Source: a virus. Taken from it: a stretch of 39,178 nucleotides of DNA. Below are positions 9,957 to 33,680 of this stretch, piece by piece. Both the position numbers and the translations under genes were made by a program. The stretch's first letter is position 1. The number at the start of each line of letters is the position of its first letter. The stretch lies in UHGV virus genome UHGV-0034768, one strand, 5' to 3'. A model generated the notes under the pieces. The model made no database searches and was not told the origin of the DNA. It saw only the letters and a list, made by a program, of their open reading frames with translations.

Positions 9957-9979
9957 ACTAAACTATCACTATAGGGAGA
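9957..9979 (+). promoter_or_regulatory. phage RNAP promoter (phi10 position), ACTAAACTATCACTATAGGGAGA
   Basis: Best match to a T7-type initiation region (GGGAGA at +1..+6); +1 G at 9974; upstream of the major capsid gene. Confidence 0.9.
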
Positions 9980-10081
9980 CCAAGAGACAGACTCAAGGTT
10001 TCCCTATTACTTCAGTCCATACGGATTGGGCATACAGTAAGTAATAAACTTTATCTTTCAATTGAATAGGAGAATTATCAT

Positions 10082-11131
10082 ATGGCAAACGTTCCGGGTC
10101 AGAAAATTGGTACAGACCAGGGTAAAGGCAAATCCAGTTCCGACGCTCTGGCGTTGTTCCTGAAGGTCTTTGCTGGTGAAGTCCTGACCGCATTCACTCG
10201 CCGCTCTGTAACTGCTGACAAGCATATTGTCCGTACCATTCAGAACGGTAAGTCTGCTCAGTTCCCGGTAATGGGTCGCACATCTGGTGTGTATCTGGCT
10301 CCGGGTGAGCGACTGTCCGATAAGCGTAAAGGTATCAAACATACCGAGAAAGTGATTACCATTGATGGTCTGCTGACTGCCGATGTGATGATTTTCGACA
10401 TTGAAGACGCGATGAACCACTATGACGTGGCTGGCGAGTACTCCAACCAGTTGGGTGAAGCTCTGGCTATCGCCGCTGATGGTGCGGTTCTGGCTGAAAT
10501 GGCCCTCCTGTGTAACCTCCCAGCTGCATCCAACGAGAACATTGCCGGTCTGGGCACTGCGTCAGTACTTGAAGTTGGTACTAAAGCCGACCTGAACACT
10601 CCGGCTAAGCTGGGTGAAGCAATCATCGGTCAACTGACCATTGCTCGTGCGAAGCTGACCTCCAACTACGTTCCTGCTGGCGACCGTTACTTCTACACCA
10701 CGCCGGACAACTACTCTGCAATCCTCGCGGCCCTGATGCCGAACGCTGCTAACTATGCTGCTCTGATTGACCCAGAGACTGGTAACATCCGTAACGTGAT
10801 GGGCTTCGTTGTTGTTGAAGTCCCGCATCTGGTGCAGGGTGGTGCTGGTGAGACCCGTGGTGACGATGGTATCACTATCGCTTCCGGACAGAAACACGCA
10901 TTCCCGGCGACTGCTGCTGGCGACGTTAAAGTTGCTATGGACAACGTTGTGGGTCTGTTCTCTCACCGTTCTGCTGTGGGTACTGTGAAGCTGCGTGACT
11001 TGGCGCTGGAACGTGACCGTGACGTCGATGCTCAGGGTGACCTGATTGTTGGTAAGTACGCTATGGGTCACGGCGGCCTGCGTCCAGAAGCGGCAGGAGC
11101 ACTGGTTTTCACAGCGGCGCTGGGGGGTTAA
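10082..11131 (+). CDS. gp10A: major capsid protein 10A
   Basis: 349 aa, strong RBS AGGAGA, Tphi-like terminator downstream; size and position as T7 gene 10A. Confidence 0.95.
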   Translation: MANVPGQKIGTDQGKGKSSSDALALFLKVFAGEVLTAFTRRSVTADKHIVRTIQNGKSAQFPVMGRTSGVYLAPGERLSDKRKGIKHTEKVITIDGLLTADVMIFDIEDAMNHYDVAGEYSNQLGEALAIAADGAVLAEMALLCNLPAASNENIAGLGTASVLEVGTKADLNTPAKLGEAIIGQLTIARAKLTSNYVPAGDRYFYTTPDNYSAILAALMPNAANYAALIDPETGNIRNVMGFVVVEVPHLVQGGAGETRGDDGITIASGQKHAFPATAAGDVKVAMDNVVGLFSHRSAVGTVKLRDLALERDRDVDAQGDLIVGKYAMGHGGLRPEAAGALVFTAALGG

Positions 11132-11394
11132 CGACCTTTAAGGCCCTCTCTACAGAGGGTCCTACCTTAGAGACGTACAGTTCTACGGTGGGGACCAGCC
11201 TGAAGGTTGACTTCCCTGAGCTTTCAGATGTGACCGATTGGTCGCTGCTTGAGGTGACTACGCCTGATGGTGTTAGCTACTCCCGTAGAACCAACAGTCT
11301 CTACTTCAAGGCCACCTCTGGCGTGGAAGGTCTGGTGATTGTTGGGTATGACGGTTCGCCTGTGCGTTCCTTCAACGTATCTTTCACAAACTAA
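10082..11394 (+). CDS. gp10B: minor capsid protein 10B via programmed -1 frameshift
   Basis: Heptamer G GTT TTC at 11104-11110, about 20 nt before the 10A stop; the -1 frame is open from the heptamer to TAA at 11392-11394, hand-checked codon by codon. Confidence 0.6.
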
Positions 11395-11397
11395 TTG

Positions 11398-11440
11398 AAA
11401 CCCCTTGGGTGCCTTCGGGTGCTTGAGGGGTTTTTTTGCT
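11398..11440 (+). terminator. Tphi-like late terminator
   Basis: AAACCCCTTGGGTGCCTTCGGGTGCTTGAGGGGTTTTTTTG: GC-rich hairpin plus U-run, very close to T7 Tphi (AACCCCTTGGGGCCTCTAAACGGGTCTTGAGGGGTTTTTTG). Confidence 0.85.
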
Positions 11441-11452
11441 TAAGGAGGGCCT

Positions 11453-12019
11453 ATGGCTCAATACATTCCACTGAATGCTAACGATGACTTAGACGCCATC
11501 AACGATATGTTAGCTGCTATCGGTGAACCAGCAGTCCTACAGCTTGACGAGGGGAACGCTGACGTCTCTAACGCTCAACGTATCCTGCACCGTGTCAATC
11601 GTCAGGTCCAAGCTAAAGGATGGAACTTTAACATAAACGAAGCTGCTGTCCTAACACCTGATGTCCAAGACAATAGGATTCGATTCTTGCCGTCATACCT
11701 TCGTGTAATGACCGCTGGGGCCACCAGCTACTACAGCAACATGGGTGGATACCTGTACGACCTGTCCACTCAGTCAACCACTTTCACCGACCCTATCACG
11801 GTAGAGCTTGTGGAGATGAAGCCATTCTCCGAGATGCCTGTGGTCTTCAGGGACTACATCGTCACTAAAGCTAGCCGTGAGTTCAACGCTAAGTTCTTCG
11901 GTAGCCCAGAGTCAGAGATATACCTTCGTGAGCAGGAAGCAGAACTCTATCAGCAGGTTATGGAGTACGAGATGGACACTGGTCGCTACAACATGATGTC
12001 TGACATCGGGAGGGACTAA
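11453..12019 (+). CDS. gp11: tail tubular protein A (T7 gp11-like)
   Basis: 188 aa, RBS AAGGAGG, synteny after capsid and terminator. Confidence 0.85.
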   Translation: MAQYIPLNANDDLDAINDMLAAIGEPAVLQLDEGNADVSNAQRILHRVNRQVQAKGWNFNINEAAVLTPDVQDNRIRFLPSYLRVMTAGATSYYSNMGGYLYDLSTQSTTFTDPITVELVEMKPFSEMPVVFRDYIVTKASREFNAKFFGSPESEIYLREQEAELYQQVMEYEMDTGRYNMMSDIGRD

Positions 12020-12246
12020 TGGCTAGTCACAACCTGAAGATTCACCGCCAGCACTTTGGTCCGGTACAGCTAGGTCTAAAGACAGCAGAGCTGAGACTTA
12101 ACGACCGGGACTTTAAGGTTGGCGATTGGCTTATCCTGAATGAGTGGGACAACGGGTATACTGGACAACAGGTAGCACGTAAGGTTGTCCACATTGCTGA
12201 CGTTGGTGACATCGCTGAAGGATACGTCCTAATGAGTATGATTTAA
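12019..12246 (+). CDS. DUF3850/ASCH-like small protein (PUA-like fold), inserted between tail tube genes
   Basis: 75 aa; motif pattern H.LKI....F..V..G.K..E.R.NDR.FKVGD.L.L.EWD..YTG......V..I......GYV.MS typical of DUF3850; ATG overlaps the gp11 stop (TAATG). Confidence 0.7.
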   Translation: MASHNLKIHRQHFGPVQLGLKTAELRLNDRDFKVGDWLILNEWDNGYTGQQVARKVVHIADVGDIAEGYVLMSMI

Positions 12247-30930: not shown

Positions 30931-30998
30931 AAGGTCTAAGACTCCAAGTGAAAGACCAAAGAGACTTAAGTGAAAGACTAATAACAAGGACTTTAAGT

Positions 30999-33680
30999 AT
31001 GAGCGTCATCTCCATTGACAAACACGACTTCTCTGATGTGTCTAACGCTATTGAGCCGTTTAACCTGCTGGCTGACCACTACGGGCAAGACCTTGCAGTC
31101 AAGCAACTTCAGCTTGAGCATGAGGCATACACTGAAGGCGAGCGACGTTTCATCAAGAACCTTGAGCGTCAGACAGAGCGCGGTGAACTGGCAGACAATC
31201 AGGTCGCCAAGCCTTTGATGCAGACTCTGGTCCCTAAGATTGCGCAAGCCGTCAAGGAGTGGCATGACGGTCCAGACGGGAAGATGTCAACATCTCGTCC
31301 TAGCGTAGCGTTCACCATGTTGAGCACTGAAGAGAAGGCCGTCAAGGACCGCTCTCTGCGCATCTCCTGTGAGTCTGCTGCGGTTATCATACTGAAGGTC
31401 ATCCTCTCCAAGCTGGTAAAGCCTGAAGGGATACCGATTACACCGATGGCCTCAGCGATAGGTCGCACACTTGAGGACGAAATCCGCTTCGGTCGCATCC
31501 GTGACAAGGAGAAGGAGCACTTCAAGAAGGCGATAGCTGAGAACCTGAACAAGCGAGCCGGGGCATCCTACAAGAAAGCCTACATGCAAGCTGTTGAGAC
31601 CTCCATGCTTGAGCAAGGTCAACTGGAAGATGCGTGGGGAACTTGGAGTCCGACCGAGGCGGTCCATGTTGGCATCAAGATGCTTGAGATTGTCATCCAG
31701 TCCACTCAACTGGTAGAGCTTAAGCGTTATGGTGCTGGCAATGCAGCGGCTGATGTTGAGATGGTCCACCTATCAGACTTCTGGGTCAAGAAGATGGCCC
31801 AACGTGGCTTCAGCCTTGCGGGTATCGCTCCAGTCTATCAACCTTGCGTAGTTCCACCTAAGCCGTGGACGGGTGTCGTAGGCGGTGGGTATTGGGCCAA
31901 AGGACGCAGACCGTTGCCACTGATTCGCTTAGGGTCTAAGTCTGCGGTAGCACGTTATGAGGACGTGTACATGCCTGAAGTCTATGACGCTGTGAACATC
32001 ATCCAGAATACACCTTGGAAAGTTAACAAGAAGGTGTTGGACGTGGTGAACATGGTCGAGAAGCTGAACAACACGCCTATTGATGATATCCCTCAGATGG
32101 AGCCACTGAAGCCTGAAGACTATGCGGGTGAGACTGAAGAGGAACTCAAGGCATGGAAGAAGGCTGCTGCTGGTATCTACCGCCGAGAGAAGGCCCGGCA
32201 GTCACGTAGATTGTCACTGAGCTTTATCGTTAACCAGGCTAACAAGTTCTCTCAGTTCAAGGCCATCTGGTTCCCGTATAACATGGACTGGCGCGGTCGC
32301 GTATACGCTGTGCCGATGTTCAACCCTCAGGGTAACGACATGCAAAAGGGTCTCCTTACTCTGGCAGTCGGTAAGCCTATTGGTGCTGATGGTTTCAAAT
32401 GGCTGAAGGTCCACGGTGCAAACTGTGCGGGTATTGATAAAGTCACCTTCGAGGAGCGCATCAAGTGGGTGGAAGACAACCACGACAACATCATGACTAC
32501 TGCTAAGGCACCGATGGACAGCATTGAGTGGTGGGGTAAGTTAGACTCTCCGTTCTGCTTCCTCGCGTTCTGCTTCGAGTATGCTGGCGTAATGCACCAC
32601 GGCCTATCTTACTCTTGCTCGCTACCGATAGCTTTCGATGGGTCCTGCTCTGGGATTCAGCACTTCAGCGCGATGCTTCGAGATCACATCGGTGGACATG
32701 CAGTAAACTTGACGCCATCCGGTAAGGTCCAAGACATCTACCGCATCGTATCCGACCGCATTGAGGAGGAACTTAAAGTCCTGCTGGTTAACGGTACGGA
32801 CAACGAGATGGTAACTCACGAGGATAAGAAAACTGGTGAGATTACCGAGCGTCTCAAGCTGGGGACACGAGAGCTGTCCCGTCAGTGGCTGACCTACGGT
32901 ATGTCACGCAAGGTTACTAAGCGTTCGGTTATGACTCTGGCCTACGGGTCGAAAGAGTACGGCTTCGCAGACCAAGTTTACGAGGACATCGTGATGCCAG
33001 CGATTGACTCAGGGTCTGGTGCCATGTTCACCGAGCCAAGCCAAGCGTCTCGTTTCATGGCTAAGATGATTTGGGAAGCTGTGAGTGTGACCGTAGTCGC
33101 TGCGGTTGACGCAATGAAGTGGCTTCAAGGTGCTGCTAAGCTGCTGGCTGCTGAAGTAAAGGACAAGAAGACAGGCGAAATACTGAAGCCTTGCCTTCCG
33201 GTACACTGGGTAACACCTGATGGTTTCCCGGTCTGGCAGGAATACCGCAAGAAGGATACAACCCGTCTGAACCTGATGTTCTTAGGGTCGTTCAACCTTC
33301 AGCCTACCGTCAACAGGGGTACGAAGAAAGAGCTGGACAAGCACAAGCAGGAGTCAGGCATTAGCCCGAACTTCGTCCACTCACAAGATGGTAGCCACCT
33401 CCGCAAGACTGTAGTCCACACGCACCGCAAGTATGGCGTAATGTCCTTCGCAGTGATTCACGATAGCTTCGGGACCATCCCGGCTGACGCTGAGTATCTG
33501 TTCCGTGGGGTCCGTGAGACTATGGTAGAGACCTACCGCGACAATGATGTGCTGCTTGACTTCTACGAGCAGTTCGAATACCAGCTTCACGAGAGCCAGC
33601 GCGACAAGTTGCCTGAGCTTCCGAAGAAAGGTAAACTGAACATAGAAGACATCTTGTCTTCAGACTTTGCATTCGCTTAA
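30999..33680 (+). CDS. gp1: DNA-directed RNA polymerase, single-subunit (T7 gp1-like)
   Basis: Start at MSVISIDKHDFSD (T7 MNTINIAKNDFSD) with AAGGA RBS; extensive identity to T7 RNAP including PWTGVVGGGYWA, FPYNMDWRGRVYAV, NCSLP.AFDGSCSGIQHFSAMLRD, HDSFGT, and C-terminal FAFA. Confidence 0.97.
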   Translation: MSVISIDKHDFSDVSNAIEPFNLLADHYGQDLAVKQLQLEHEAYTEGERRFIKNLERQTERGELADNQVAKPLMQTLVPKIAQAVKEWHDGPDGKMSTSRPSVAFTMLSTEEKAVKDRSLRISCESAAVIILKVILSKLVKPEGIPITPMASAIGRTLEDEIRFGRIRDKEKEHFKKAIAENLNKRAGASYKKAYMQAVETSMLEQGQLEDAWGTWSPTEAVHVGIKMLEIVIQSTQLVELKRYGAGNAAADVEMVHLSDFWVKKMAQRGFSLAGIAPVYQPCVVPPKPWTGVVGGGYWAKGRRPLPLIRLGSKSAVARYEDVYMPEVYDAVNIIQNTPWKVNKKVLDVVNMVEKLNNTPIDDIPQMEPLKPEDYAGETEEELKAWKKAAAGIYRREKARQSRRLSLSFIVNQANKFSQFKAIWFPYNMDWRGRVYAVPMFNPQGNDMQKGLLTLAVGKPIGADGFKWLKVHGANCAGIDKVTFEERIKWVEDNHDNIMTTAKAPMDSIEWWGKLDSPFCFLAFCFEYAGVMHHGLSYSCSLPIAFDGSCSGIQHFSAMLRDHIGGHAVNLTPSGKVQDIYRIVSDRIEEELKVLLVNGTDNEMVTHEDKKTGEITERLKLGTRELSRQWLTYGMSRKVTKRSVMTLAYGSKEYGFADQVYEDIVMPAIDSGSGAMFTEPSQASRFMAKMIWEAVSVTVVAAVDAMKWLQGAAKLLAAEVKDKKTGEILKPCLPVHWVTPDGFPVWQEYRKKDTTRLNLMFLGSFNLQPTVNRGTKKELDKHKQESGISPNFVHSQDGSHLRKTVVHTHRKYGVMSFAVIHDSFGTIPADAEYLFRGVRETMVETYRDNDVLLDFYEQFEYQLHESQRDKLPELPKKGKLNIEDILSSDFAFA

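What the first reader, a model, noticed from the sequence alone, without database searches (positions are those of the whole stretch)
11104..11394. Conserved -1 frameshift site for the capsid 10A/10B pair
The heptamer GGTTTTC sits about 20 nt before the 10A stop, and the -1 frame stays open for a further ~95 codons to 11394, directly before the Tphi-like terminator. This reproduces the T7 10A/10B arrangement.
Basis: partly seen in the sequence, partly recalled or inferred. Interest (0 to 1): 0.4.

Follow-up and report, generated by a model that had tools for sequence, protein, structure and literature searches.

The report
T7-type capsid 10A/10B frameshift site
This is the well-known ribosomal -1 frameshift site at the end of the major capsid gene of a T7-like (Kayfunavirus) phage; here it adds a 94-residue linker plus predicted Ig-like domain to a minority of capsid subunits, which is real and conserved but already annotated in close relatives.

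Summary
GGTTTTC (11104-11110) lies in the register G_GTT_TTC, six codons before the stop of the 349-aa capsid gene (10082-11131). The -1 frame runs on for 94 sense codons to a stop at 11392-11394, 2 nt before a terminator homologous to T7 Tphi. The predicted 10B is 437 aa.

Comparative evidence makes this far more than chance:
- 63 of 65 related loci keep GGTTTTC and the other two have CGTTTTC.
- The slip-site Val codon GTT is the only one of 16 invariant-Val columns with an invariant codon.
- The extension has dN/dS of 0.14-0.23 in the -1 frame only.
- It has tblastn matches in 455 phage records across several Studiervirinae genera.

The interpretation (T7-like 10A/10B) is supported, with one qualification. 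The extension is unrelated to T7's short tail. It is a ~17-residue linker plus a predicted seven-strand Ig-like sandwich with no Pfam family. Functionally it resembles T3's Big_2-bearing 10B, but it uses T7's slip site.

The arrangement is already annotated (phages Peacock and CR8), and the frameshift product is exploited experimentally in K1F, whose extension is different. Novelty: already known. Interest is low.

A hairpin that keeps its position in the linker-coding RNA, with covariation in Przondovirus, is the only loose end.

The parts
9957..9979 (+). T7-type late promoter upstream of gene 10 (phi10 equivalent), ACTAAACTATCACTATAGGGAGA
   Evidence: Read from the sequence. It resembles the T7 promoter consensus (own knowledge). 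K11 and T3 have an annotated phi10 promoter at the same place. Not tested further.
10068..10072 (+). Shine-Dalgarno AGGAG of gene 10
   Evidence: Read from the sequence. The same ATAGGAGAAttatcatATG is listed for the SH3-SH5 capsid gene in PMC4925675.
10082..11131 (+). Gene 10A, major capsid protein, 349 aa, 36.4 kDa (zero-frame product)
   Evidence: ORF list. Pfam Gp10A-like, E 9.6e-105. PDB capsids 9vvq, 7y23 and T7 2xvr.
11104..11110 (+). Slippery heptamer G_GTT_TTC (L341-V342-F343). tRNA-Val in the P site and tRNA-Phe in the A site slip back one base to GGT_TTT.
   Evidence: Conserved in 63 of 65 loci; the other two have C_GTT_TTC. GTT and TTC are codon-invariant in 63 distinct sequences. 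GTT is the only codon-invariant Val among 16 invariant-Val columns.
11110..11394 (+). The -1 frame part of gene 10B: 94 codons plus TAA. Full 10B = join(10082..11110, 11110..11394), 437 aa, 45.9 kDa.
   Evidence: dN/dS is 0.14-0.23 in this frame against about 0.5-3 in the other two. tblastn matches in 455 phage records. PHROG 7473.
11110..11160 (+). Linker (extension residues 1-17, HSGAGGLTTFKALSTEG), predicted disordered
   Evidence: AlphaFold2 pLDDT is below 50 for residues 1-9 and 11-16. The sequence is variable between clades.
11161..11391 (+). Predicted Ig-like seven-strand beta-sandwich domain (extension residues 18-94)
11143..11160 (+). RNA hairpin GCCCUCU-CUAC-AGAGGGU in the linker-coding region. 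It starts 32 nt after the heptamer and 11 nt after the 10A stop. Role unknown.
   Evidence: 7 bp, kept in 12 Kayfunavirus sequences with one compatible change and no covariation. Hairpins of different sequence sit at the same alignment position in three other clades. Covariation is seen in Przondovirus.
11122..11128 (+). Second in-register heptamer, G_GGG_GGT, immediately before the 10A stop. It is absent from all 64 other loci examined, which read TCAGCGGGT or other sequences here. An identical extension in CHX131 implies it shares the G run.
   Evidence: It is a possible minor alternative slip site leading into the same -1 frame. The product would also be 437 aa. Untested.
11397..11441 (+). 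Tphi-homologous intrinsic terminator (17-bp stem 11397-11434, then a T run). It includes the CCCC (11401-11404) that in T7 is reported to contribute to frameshift stimulation.
   Evidence: The T7 CCCC statement comes from PMC5009743.

Best explanation
This is the gene 10 programmed -1 ribosomal frameshift of a T7-like phage, genus Kayfunavirus by similarity.

Most ribosomes translating the late capsid mRNA read G_GUU_UUC in the zero frame. They terminate six codons later and give the 349-aa major capsid protein 10A.

A minority slip. With tRNA-Val on GUU in the P site and tRNA-Phe on UUC in the A site, both move back one base to GGU_UUU. The Phe tRNA re-pairs perfectly and the Val tRNA re-pairs at two of three positions. 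These ribosomes continue from CAC at 11110 in the -1 frame for 94 codons, giving the 437-aa minor capsid protein 10B.

10B shares residues 1-343 with 10A, so it can co-assemble into the T=7 shell. Its extra tail is a ~17-residue flexible linker plus an Ig-like beta-sandwich, presumably displayed on the capsid surface. By analogy with other phage Ig-like decorations, it would act as a weak accessory adhesion module.

Shown here:
- the site, its register, the open frame and the terminator;
- strong conservation of the slip codons;
- purifying selection on the extension in the -1 frame;
- continuity of protein conservation back to the slip site;
- a confident Ig-like fold prediction.

Inferred:
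- that slippage is ribosomal and tandem;
- the frameshift efficiency (about 10% in T7, from my own knowledge);
- surface display and the adhesion role;
- any role for the Tphi CCCC or the linker hairpin as stimulators.
For: - Site and frames.
- Capsid homology to T7 gp10A.
- Same heptamer, register and position as T7 (annotated join).
- 63 of 65 loci from Kayfunavirus, Przondovirus, Berlinvirus, Pektosvirus, Caroctavirus, T7 and K1F keep GGTTTTC. Two have CGTTTTC. In all 65 the -1 frame is open from the slip site to the end of the extension.
- Codon control: the slip-site Val is GTT in 63 of 63 distinct genes. The other 15 invariant-Val columns all vary in codon. Only 27 of 184 invariant-residue degenerate columns are codon-invariant.
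- dN/dS is 0.14-0.23 in the -1 frame and about 0.5-3 in the other frames.
- The extension has tblastn matches in 455 phage records, down to about 42% identity. Alignments reach query residue 1-7, upstream of any start codon.
- There is no in-frame ATG. The first GTG (11188) has no Shine-Dalgarno and would remove predicted strand 1.
- Joined frameshift CDS in Peacock and CR8, the latter with a mass-spectrometry note.
- K1F gene 10b frameshift fusions give fluorescent or adhesin-displaying virions: PMC6277420, PMC13370021.
- Review statements on the T7 G_GU heptamer and on Ig-like extensions added by frameshifting: PMC5009743.
- Fold.
Against: - There are no direct protein data for this phage.
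- The CR8 'mass spectrometry' note may rest on peptides shared with 10A.
- No canonical 3' stimulator lies 5-9 nt after the heptamer. The nearest stable hairpin starts 32 nt downstream.
- The upstream AGGAG (11095-11099) is only 4 nt from the site and is not conserved; the GGA codon occurs in 2 of 63 sequences.
- Many GenBank records annotate the extension as a separate small ORF.
- TTC is the strongly preferred Phe codon, so its invariance alone is uninformative: 5 of 8 Phe columns are invariant.
Confidence: 0.9

Rival explanations
1. The downstream ORF is a separate small gene. It would be translated from its own start (GTG 11188, 68 aa) as a free 'minor capsid' or decoration protein, as many GenBank records annotate it. 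On this reading the heptamer is incidental.
For: - ORF finders and many records call it separately.
- Free Ig-like vertex decoration proteins exist in a T7-like Vibrio phage (PMC13320782).
Against: - There is no in-frame ATG and no Shine-Dalgarno before GTG 11188.
- The called start differs between clades, giving products of 54-87 aa.
- Protein conservation and the open frame continue upstream to the slip site in all 65 loci.
- Initiation at 11188 would delete confidently predicted strand 1.
- The slip-site Val codon is uniquely frozen.
Confidence: 0.04
2. In this particular phage some or all of the shift occurs at the second heptamer, G_GGG_GGT (11122-11128). It abuts the 10A stop codon, where slow termination could favour a -1 slip. 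The product would be a 437-aa 10B with the junction ...ALVFTAALGGLTTFK.
For: - The heptamer is in the correct register and leads into the same -1 frame.
- It lies next to a stop codon.
- Phage CHX131, whose extension is 100% identical, implies the same G run. That argues against a one-off sequencing error.
Against: - It is absent from all 64 other loci examined, which still keep the extension.
- G-rich heptamers are not known as efficient slip sites in E. coli (own knowledge).
- The universally conserved element is G_GTT_TTC.
Confidence: 0.05
3. The long product arises by transcriptional slippage of the phage RNA polymerase on the T run, not by ribosomal slippage.
For: A TTTT run lies within the site. 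The CR8 record marks 'tttt' as the feature.
Against: - Four Ts is far shorter than the homopolymer runs needed for productive polymerase slippage (own knowledge).
- The conserved element includes the flanking G and C in a fixed codon register. That is the signature of tRNA re-pairing.
- The T7 site is established as ribosomal (PMC5009743).
Confidence: 0.01

Closest known systems
Bacteriophage T7 gene 10A/10B -1 programmed ribosomal frameshift (Condron, Atkins and Gesteland 1991; reviewed in PMC5009743)
   Same: - Homologous capsid gene.
- Identical heptamer G_GUU_UUC in the same register, a few codons before the 10A stop.
- A -1 extension ending just before a homologous Tphi terminator that carries the CCCC motif.
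   Different: - The extension is 94 aa here against 56 codons counted in T7.
- The two extensions are unrelated in sequence.
- The one here is predicted to fold as an Ig-like domain, whereas T7's is stated not to be Ig-like.
- The distance from slip site to terminator is about 290 nt here against about 200 nt in T7.
Bacteriophage T3 gene 10B (Ig-like extension added by -1 frameshift; Fraser et al. 2006 as cited in PMC5009743 and PMC13320782)
   Same: A -1 frameshift near the end of the capsid gene appends a roughly 90-residue Ig-like domain to a fraction of capsid subunits.
   Different: - T3 slips on C_CCA_AAG, not G_GUU_UUC.
- Its domain is Pfam Big_2, E 4e-10.
- The domain here has no Pfam match and no profile similarity to T3's: hhalign probability 0.6%.
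Annotated 10B of Escherichia phage Peacock (MK903279) and Citrobacter phage CR8 (NC_023548)
   Same: - Same slip site and a homologous extension.
- Peacock is 94.8% identical in DNA over the region. CR8's extension is about 51% identical in protein.
- Both are annotated as joined -1 frameshift CDSs.
   Different: Nothing essential. This window additionally has a G6 run that creates a second heptamer, plus an AGGAG 4 nt upstream.
Escherichia phage K1F gene 10b (type Kayfunavirus)
   Same: - Same genus-level backbone, same heptamer and a near-identical terminator.
- The frameshift product has been shown usable for capsid display.
   Different: K1F's extension is short (48 codons here; '44 triplets' in PMC6277420) and non-homologous. 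The cassette between slip site and terminator has therefore been exchanged within the genus.

Membership tests
T7-type gene 10 -1 programmed ribosomal frameshift (10A/10B) | The host gene is a T7 gp10A-family major capsid protein | tested here: met
   Pfam PF21703 Gp10A-like, E 9.6e-105. E 5e-146 to T7 10A chains.
T7-type gene 10 -1 programmed ribosomal frameshift (10A/10B) | Heptamer G_GUU_UUC in the zero-frame register X_XXY_YYZ, a few codons before the 10A stop | tested here: met
   11104-11110, six codons before the stop. Identical to T7. 63 of 65 loci keep it.
T7-type gene 10 -1 programmed ribosomal frameshift (10A/10B) | The -1 frame is open from the slip site past the 10A stop and is maintained as coding sequence | tested here: met
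   94 codons. Open in all 65 loci. dN/dS 0.14-0.23 in that frame only.
T7-type gene 10 -1 programmed ribosomal frameshift (10A/10B) | Synonymous-site constraint on the slip codons beyond what the protein requires | tested here: met
   GTT is the only codon-invariant Val among 16 invariant-Val columns. 27 of 184 columns are codon-invariant overall.
T7-type gene 10 -1 programmed ribosomal frameshift (10A/10B) | Distal 3' element: CCCC within the Tphi terminator, reported to contribute to stimulation in T7 | tested here: inconclusive
   A homologous terminator with CCCC at 11401-11404 is present. The motif is part of every such terminator stem, so its presence says nothing about a role in frameshifting. 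The T7 claim comes from PMC5009743.
T7-type gene 10 -1 programmed ribosomal frameshift (10A/10B) | A longer capsid species with the frameshift junction is present in virions | not testable with these tools
   Only indirect support: the CR8 record note and the K1F g10b fusions.
Canonical bacterial -1 frameshift cassette (dnaX/IS type: slippery heptamer plus a 3' stem-loop or pseudoknot 5-9 nt downstream, with or without an upstream Shine-Dalgarno at 10-14 nt) | A stable 3' structure starting 5-9 nt after the heptamer | tested here: not met
   The first stable conserved hairpin starts 32 nt after the heptamer here and 19 nt after it in Przondovirus. No Rfam family matches.
Canonical bacterial -1 frameshift cassette (dnaX/IS type: slippery heptamer plus a 3' stem-loop or pseudoknot 5-9 nt downstream, with or without an upstream Shine-Dalgarno at 10-14 nt) | A conserved upstream Shine-Dalgarno-like stimulator | tested here: not met
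   AGGAG at 11095-11099 is 4 nt upstream and depends on a GGA Gly codon found in only 2 of 63 sequences.
Phage Ig-like domains appended by programmed frameshift (Fraser et al. 2006 class) | The C-terminal extension adopts an Ig-like beta-sandwich | tested here: met
Phage Ig-like domains appended by programmed frameshift (Fraser et al. 2006 class) | Membership of one of the recognised sequence families (Big_2, I-set, FN3) | tested here: not met
   No Pfam hit at E <= 1 apart from noise. T3's extension hits Big_2, but there is no profile similarity between the two.
BACON domain (Pfam PF13004/PF19190) | Significant sequence or profile match to BACON | tested here: inconclusive
   The profile search hit a BACON-repeat protein at E 5e-11, summed over 5 repeats. 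However, hhalign probability is only 34% and there is no direct Pfam hit.

The most novel reading that the evidence does not exclude
The hairpin in the linker-coding RNA is a selected cis-element. It lies just 3' of the conserved GTAAnnACCTTTA motif and the 10A stop. Its sequence differs between clades but its position is kept, and in Przondovirus it shows amino-acid-changing compensatory substitutions. On this reading it sets the 10B:10A ratio as a non-canonical, distantly spaced frameshift stimulator, or as a stabiliser of the sparsely translated 3' part of the mRNA. That would bear on the long-unexplained long-range stimulation of T7 gene 10 frameshifting.
Probability: 0.15. Interest if true: 0.45.

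Novelty: already known. Interest (0 to 1): 0.15.

Why it matters
The practical value is mostly in annotation. Many public records of these phages split 10B into a capsid gene plus a 'hypothetical protein'; the correct form is a joined -1 frameshift CDS.

Biologically, it adds a documented case to a known pattern. T7-like phages use a fixed slip site and terminator as a docking cassette into which different C-terminal modules are swapped: T7's tail, K1F's tail, T3's Big_2 domain and this unclassified Ig-like domain.

This is also the natural counterpart of the engineered K1F 10B display platform. It marks these phages as candidates for capsid-mediated adhesion to mucus or host glycans.

Tried and rejected
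- Heptamer frequency and raw -1 ORF length as significance tests. Neither is informative. GGTTTTC is expected about 3.9 times in the window. Long -1 open frames after stops are common here because neighbouring genes overlap.
- Sequence search of the PDB with the extension gave only noise from carboxypeptidases. Solved T7-like capsids contain only the 10A part.
- Pfam gave nothing for the extension or its Przondovirus and Pektosvirus homologues.
- Rfam at gathering thresholds gave nothing in the whole window.
- My own hairpin scan with fixed window lengths was too crude and crashed. I replaced it with per-clade RNAalifold runs.
- The Condron et al. 1991 paper is not held. I could not find the CR8 mass-spectrometry data in print; the genome announcement does not mention them.
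- I considered a GGGG:CCCC long-range pairing between the window's G6 run and the terminator. I set it aside because the G run is absent from all relatives, which nevertheless keep the extension.
- The weak hits of the domain profile to He_PIG, Invasin/Big_1 and a beta-propeller-like repeat protein look like generic beta-sandwich or compositional matches.

Full report
**What the window is.** The 39-kb window is a circularly permuted genome of a T7-like phage (ORF map). The region 10000-11460 is 94-98% identical to many Kayfunavirus genomes, with Escherichia virus TH16 the best at 97.7%. It matches 306 phage records in all.

**Checking the observation.**
- The ORF 10082-11131 encodes a 349-aa protein. 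It is a T7 gp10A-family major capsid protein: Pfam Gp10A-like, E 9.6e-105, and E 5e-146 to the T7 10A chains in the PDB.
- GGTTTTC occurs once in the window, at 11104-11110. Its register relative to the ATG is G_GTT_TTC (Leu341-Val342-Phe343), and six codons separate it from the TAA at 11129-11131.
- The -1 frame is open from 11056 to 11394. From the slip point it gives 94 sense codons, so 10B would be 343 + 94 = 437 aa and 45.9 kDa, against 36.4 kDa for 10A.
- Two bases after the 10B stop, a 17-bp G+C-rich hairpin with a T run begins (11397-11441). Its energy is -25.2 kcal/mol, z = -3.95. It aligns with T7 Tphi and the K1F, K11 and T3 terminators, including the ACCCCTTGGG...GAGGGGTTTTT core.

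**Is it more than chance?**
- Neither the heptamer count (3.9 expected) nor the length of the -1 frame is significant on its own. The comparative data are.
- I collected 65 loci: the window, ten annotated records and 54 IMG/VR contigs found with the extension.
- 63 loci have GGTTTTC in the same register, three to six codons before the 10A stop. The other two have CGTTTTC through a synonymous CTG-to-CTC change. In all 65 the -1 frame is open from the slip point to the end of the extension.
- A codon-level control was run over 63 distinct capsid genes. It shows 16 columns with invariant Val, and only the slip-site Val has an invariant codon (GTT 63/63). Overall only 27 of 184 invariant-residue degenerate columns are codon-invariant.
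- TTC invariance is not informative, because TTC is strongly preferred (5 of 8 Phe columns are invariant).
- In the extension, Nei-Gojobori dN/dS against relatives at 80-95% DNA identity is 0.14-0.23 in the -1 frame. It is about 0.5-3 in the other two frames.
- tblastn finds the extension in 455 phage records (Klebsiella, Escherichia, Salmonella, Enterobacter, Pectobacterium, Citrobacter and others), down to about 42% identity. Alignments start at query residues 1-7, right at the slip site.

**Fused product or separate gene?**
- Many records annotate the extension as a separate 54-87-aa 'hypothetical protein', 'minor capsid protein' or even 'major head protein'.
- The -1 frame contains no ATG. 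The first GTG (11188) has no Shine-Dalgarno.
- The called starts differ between clades, and conservation runs upstream of all of them.
- Initiation at 11188 would remove the first predicted beta-strand.
- Two curated records annotate the joined -1 frameshift CDS. One is phage Peacock, 94.8% identical here.
- The other is Citrobacter phage CR8, whose record says 'matches in mass spectrometry analysis; predicted translation by a -1 internal frameshift'. Its genome announcement does not discuss this.
- In K1F, fusions to the end of gene 10b yield fluorescent or adhesin-displaying virions. That shows the frameshift product is made and assembled in this genus (PMC6277420; PMC13370021).

**What the extension is.**
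- It is not T7's. T7's tail (56 codons from the slip point in my count) aligns at about 20% with no real similarity. K1F, the type Kayfunavirus, has an unrelated 48-codon tail.
- T3 slips at C_CCA_AAG, and its extension is a Pfam Big_2 domain, E 4e-10.
- The window's extension has no Pfam match. It belongs to PHROG 7473, 'unknown function'. It shows no profile similarity to T3's domain.
- AlphaFold2 on a 19-sequence alignment gave mean pLDDT 81. Residues 1-16 are disordered, followed by a seven-strand sandwich at pLDDT about 90.
- Foldseek against BFVD finds the PP81 'minor capsid protein' and then weak Ig-like hits.
- An exhaustive profile search of 1.8 billion representatives found only 12 hits. 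These were short phage ORFs plus weak multi-repeat matches to a BACON-repeat protein and generic Ig-like repeat proteins. The BACON link is inconclusive: hhalign probability is 34%.
- The solved capsids of close relatives (9vvq, 7y23) contain only the 10A part.

**Mechanism.**
- The heptamer is the one established for T7 (the 'X_XX is G_GU in phage T7 gene 10' statement in PMC5009743).
- The best-supported mechanism is therefore tandem -1 slippage of P-site tRNA-Val and A-site tRNA-Phe. The two natural C_GUU_UUC variants fit the view that A-site Phe re-pairing is the core requirement.
- No canonical stimulator is present. The upstream AGGAG is too close and is not conserved, and no stable structure starts 5-9 nt downstream.
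- The same review notes that T7 frameshifting depends, unexplained, on a CCCC in the terminator more than 200 nt downstream. The homologous CCCC is present here at 11401-11404, but its presence is uninformative because it is part of the terminator stem.

**A loose end: the linker hairpin.**
- After the conserved motif GTAAnnACC(T/C)TTA(A/G), which contains the 10A stop, all four clades carrying this extension have a hairpin at the same alignment position but with different sequences.
- In the window it is 7 bp (11143-11149 with 11154-11160) and shows no covariation.
- In Przondovirus it is 18 bp and 98% of cells are paired, against 35-53% when the partners are slid. Two pairs covary (AU/GC and CG/UA) through substitutions that change the linker amino acids. 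There are 14 double-change cells, a value reached by 0 of 500 shuffles.
- Its distance from the slip site (19-32 nt) does not fit a classical stimulator, and its role is unknown.

**A feature peculiar to this window.** A G6 run creates a second in-register heptamer, G_GGG_GGT (11122-11128), abutting the stop. It is absent from all 64 other loci examined. At most it is a minor alternative slip site.

**Comparison and verdict.**
- This is the T7 10A/10B frameshift in a Kayfunavirus. It uses T7's slip site and terminator but carries an Ig-like module, in the manner of T3's 10B.
- That Ig-like extensions are repeatedly added to phage structural proteins by frameshifting, including in T3 but not T7, is already in the literature (also PMC13320782).
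- The exact arrangement is annotated in near-identical genomes.
- It is real, functional-looking and correctly interpreted, but it is already known.
- The modest additions here are the Ig-like fold assignment for an unclassified extension family, the codon-level evidence for constraint on the slip site, evidence of cassette exchange within the genus, and the linker hairpin that keeps its position.

Noticed in passing
window 11122-11128: A G6 run creates a second in-register X_XXY_YYZ heptamer (G_GGG_GGT) directly before the 10A stop. It is absent from all 64 other loci examined, which read TCAGCGGGT or other sequences here. CHX131's 100%-identical extension implies it shares the run. A slip there would enter the same -1 frame and also give 437 aa.
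   Followed up: partly
window 11095-11099: A Shine-Dalgarno-like AGGAG lies 4 nt upstream of the slippery heptamer. It depends on a GGA Gly codon present in only 2 of 63 related sequences, so it is probably incidental.
   Followed up: yes
window 11143-11160; L004 1406-1448 (Przondovirus KP32 isolate 192): A hairpin in the linker-coding RNA keeps its position but differs in sequence between clades. In Przondovirus it is 18 bp with two covarying pairs maintained by amino-acid-changing substitutions. Function unknown.
   Followed up: partly
window 11125-11141 and aligned positions in L004, L020, L010: A nucleotide motif GTAAnnACC(T/C)TTA(A/G) spans the 10A stop and is conserved across clades whose flanking sequence has diverged. 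K1F, with an unrelated extension, has a similar GTAAGCACTTTTAG.
   Followed up: no
L010 (K1F) 1159-1310 versus window 11104-11394: K1F, the type species of the genus, has a non-homologous 48-codon extension between the same slip site and a near-identical terminator. The extension therefore behaves as an exchangeable cassette within Kayfunavirus.
   Followed up: partly
L060 and L064, about 1414-1420: Two Przondovirus-like contigs have C_GTT_TTC instead of G_GTT_TTC (a synonymous CTG-to-CTC change) but keep the full extension. This suggests that first-position re-pairing by the P-site tRNA is dispensable.
   Followed up: partly
window 12019-12246: A 75-aa ORF is inserted between tail tubular genes A and B. 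It is annotated as 'RNA-binding protein' in phage LS2. T7 has no gene at this position.
   Followed up: no
GenBank records PP889465, PV485104, NC_047968, KY084243, MN518894 (L002-L007): Annotation is inconsistent. The extension is called a separate 'hypothetical protein', 'minor capsid protein', 'major head protein' or 'capsid assembly protein'. In K11 it is not annotated at all. In Pkp-1 the 10A gene itself is labelled 'minor capsid protein', as is PDB entry 9vvq.
   Followed up: yes
P0039 (398-aa BACON-repeat protein with a T9SS sorting domain): The profile of the extension domain weakly matches BACON repeats: summed E 5e-11, hhalign probability 34%. BACON domains were recently displayed artificially on K1F 10B (PMC13370021). 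A natural BACON-like 10B domain would be a neat parallel, but the link is unproven.
   Followed up: partly
window 1-39178: The window is a circular permutation of the usual T7-like map. It starts in the primase/helicase-DNA polymerase region, and a 910-aa ORF that is probably the RNA polymerase lies at 30948-33680 (gene identities are inferred from ORF sizes and order only). The assembly was therefore not oriented on the terminal repeats.
   Followed up: no
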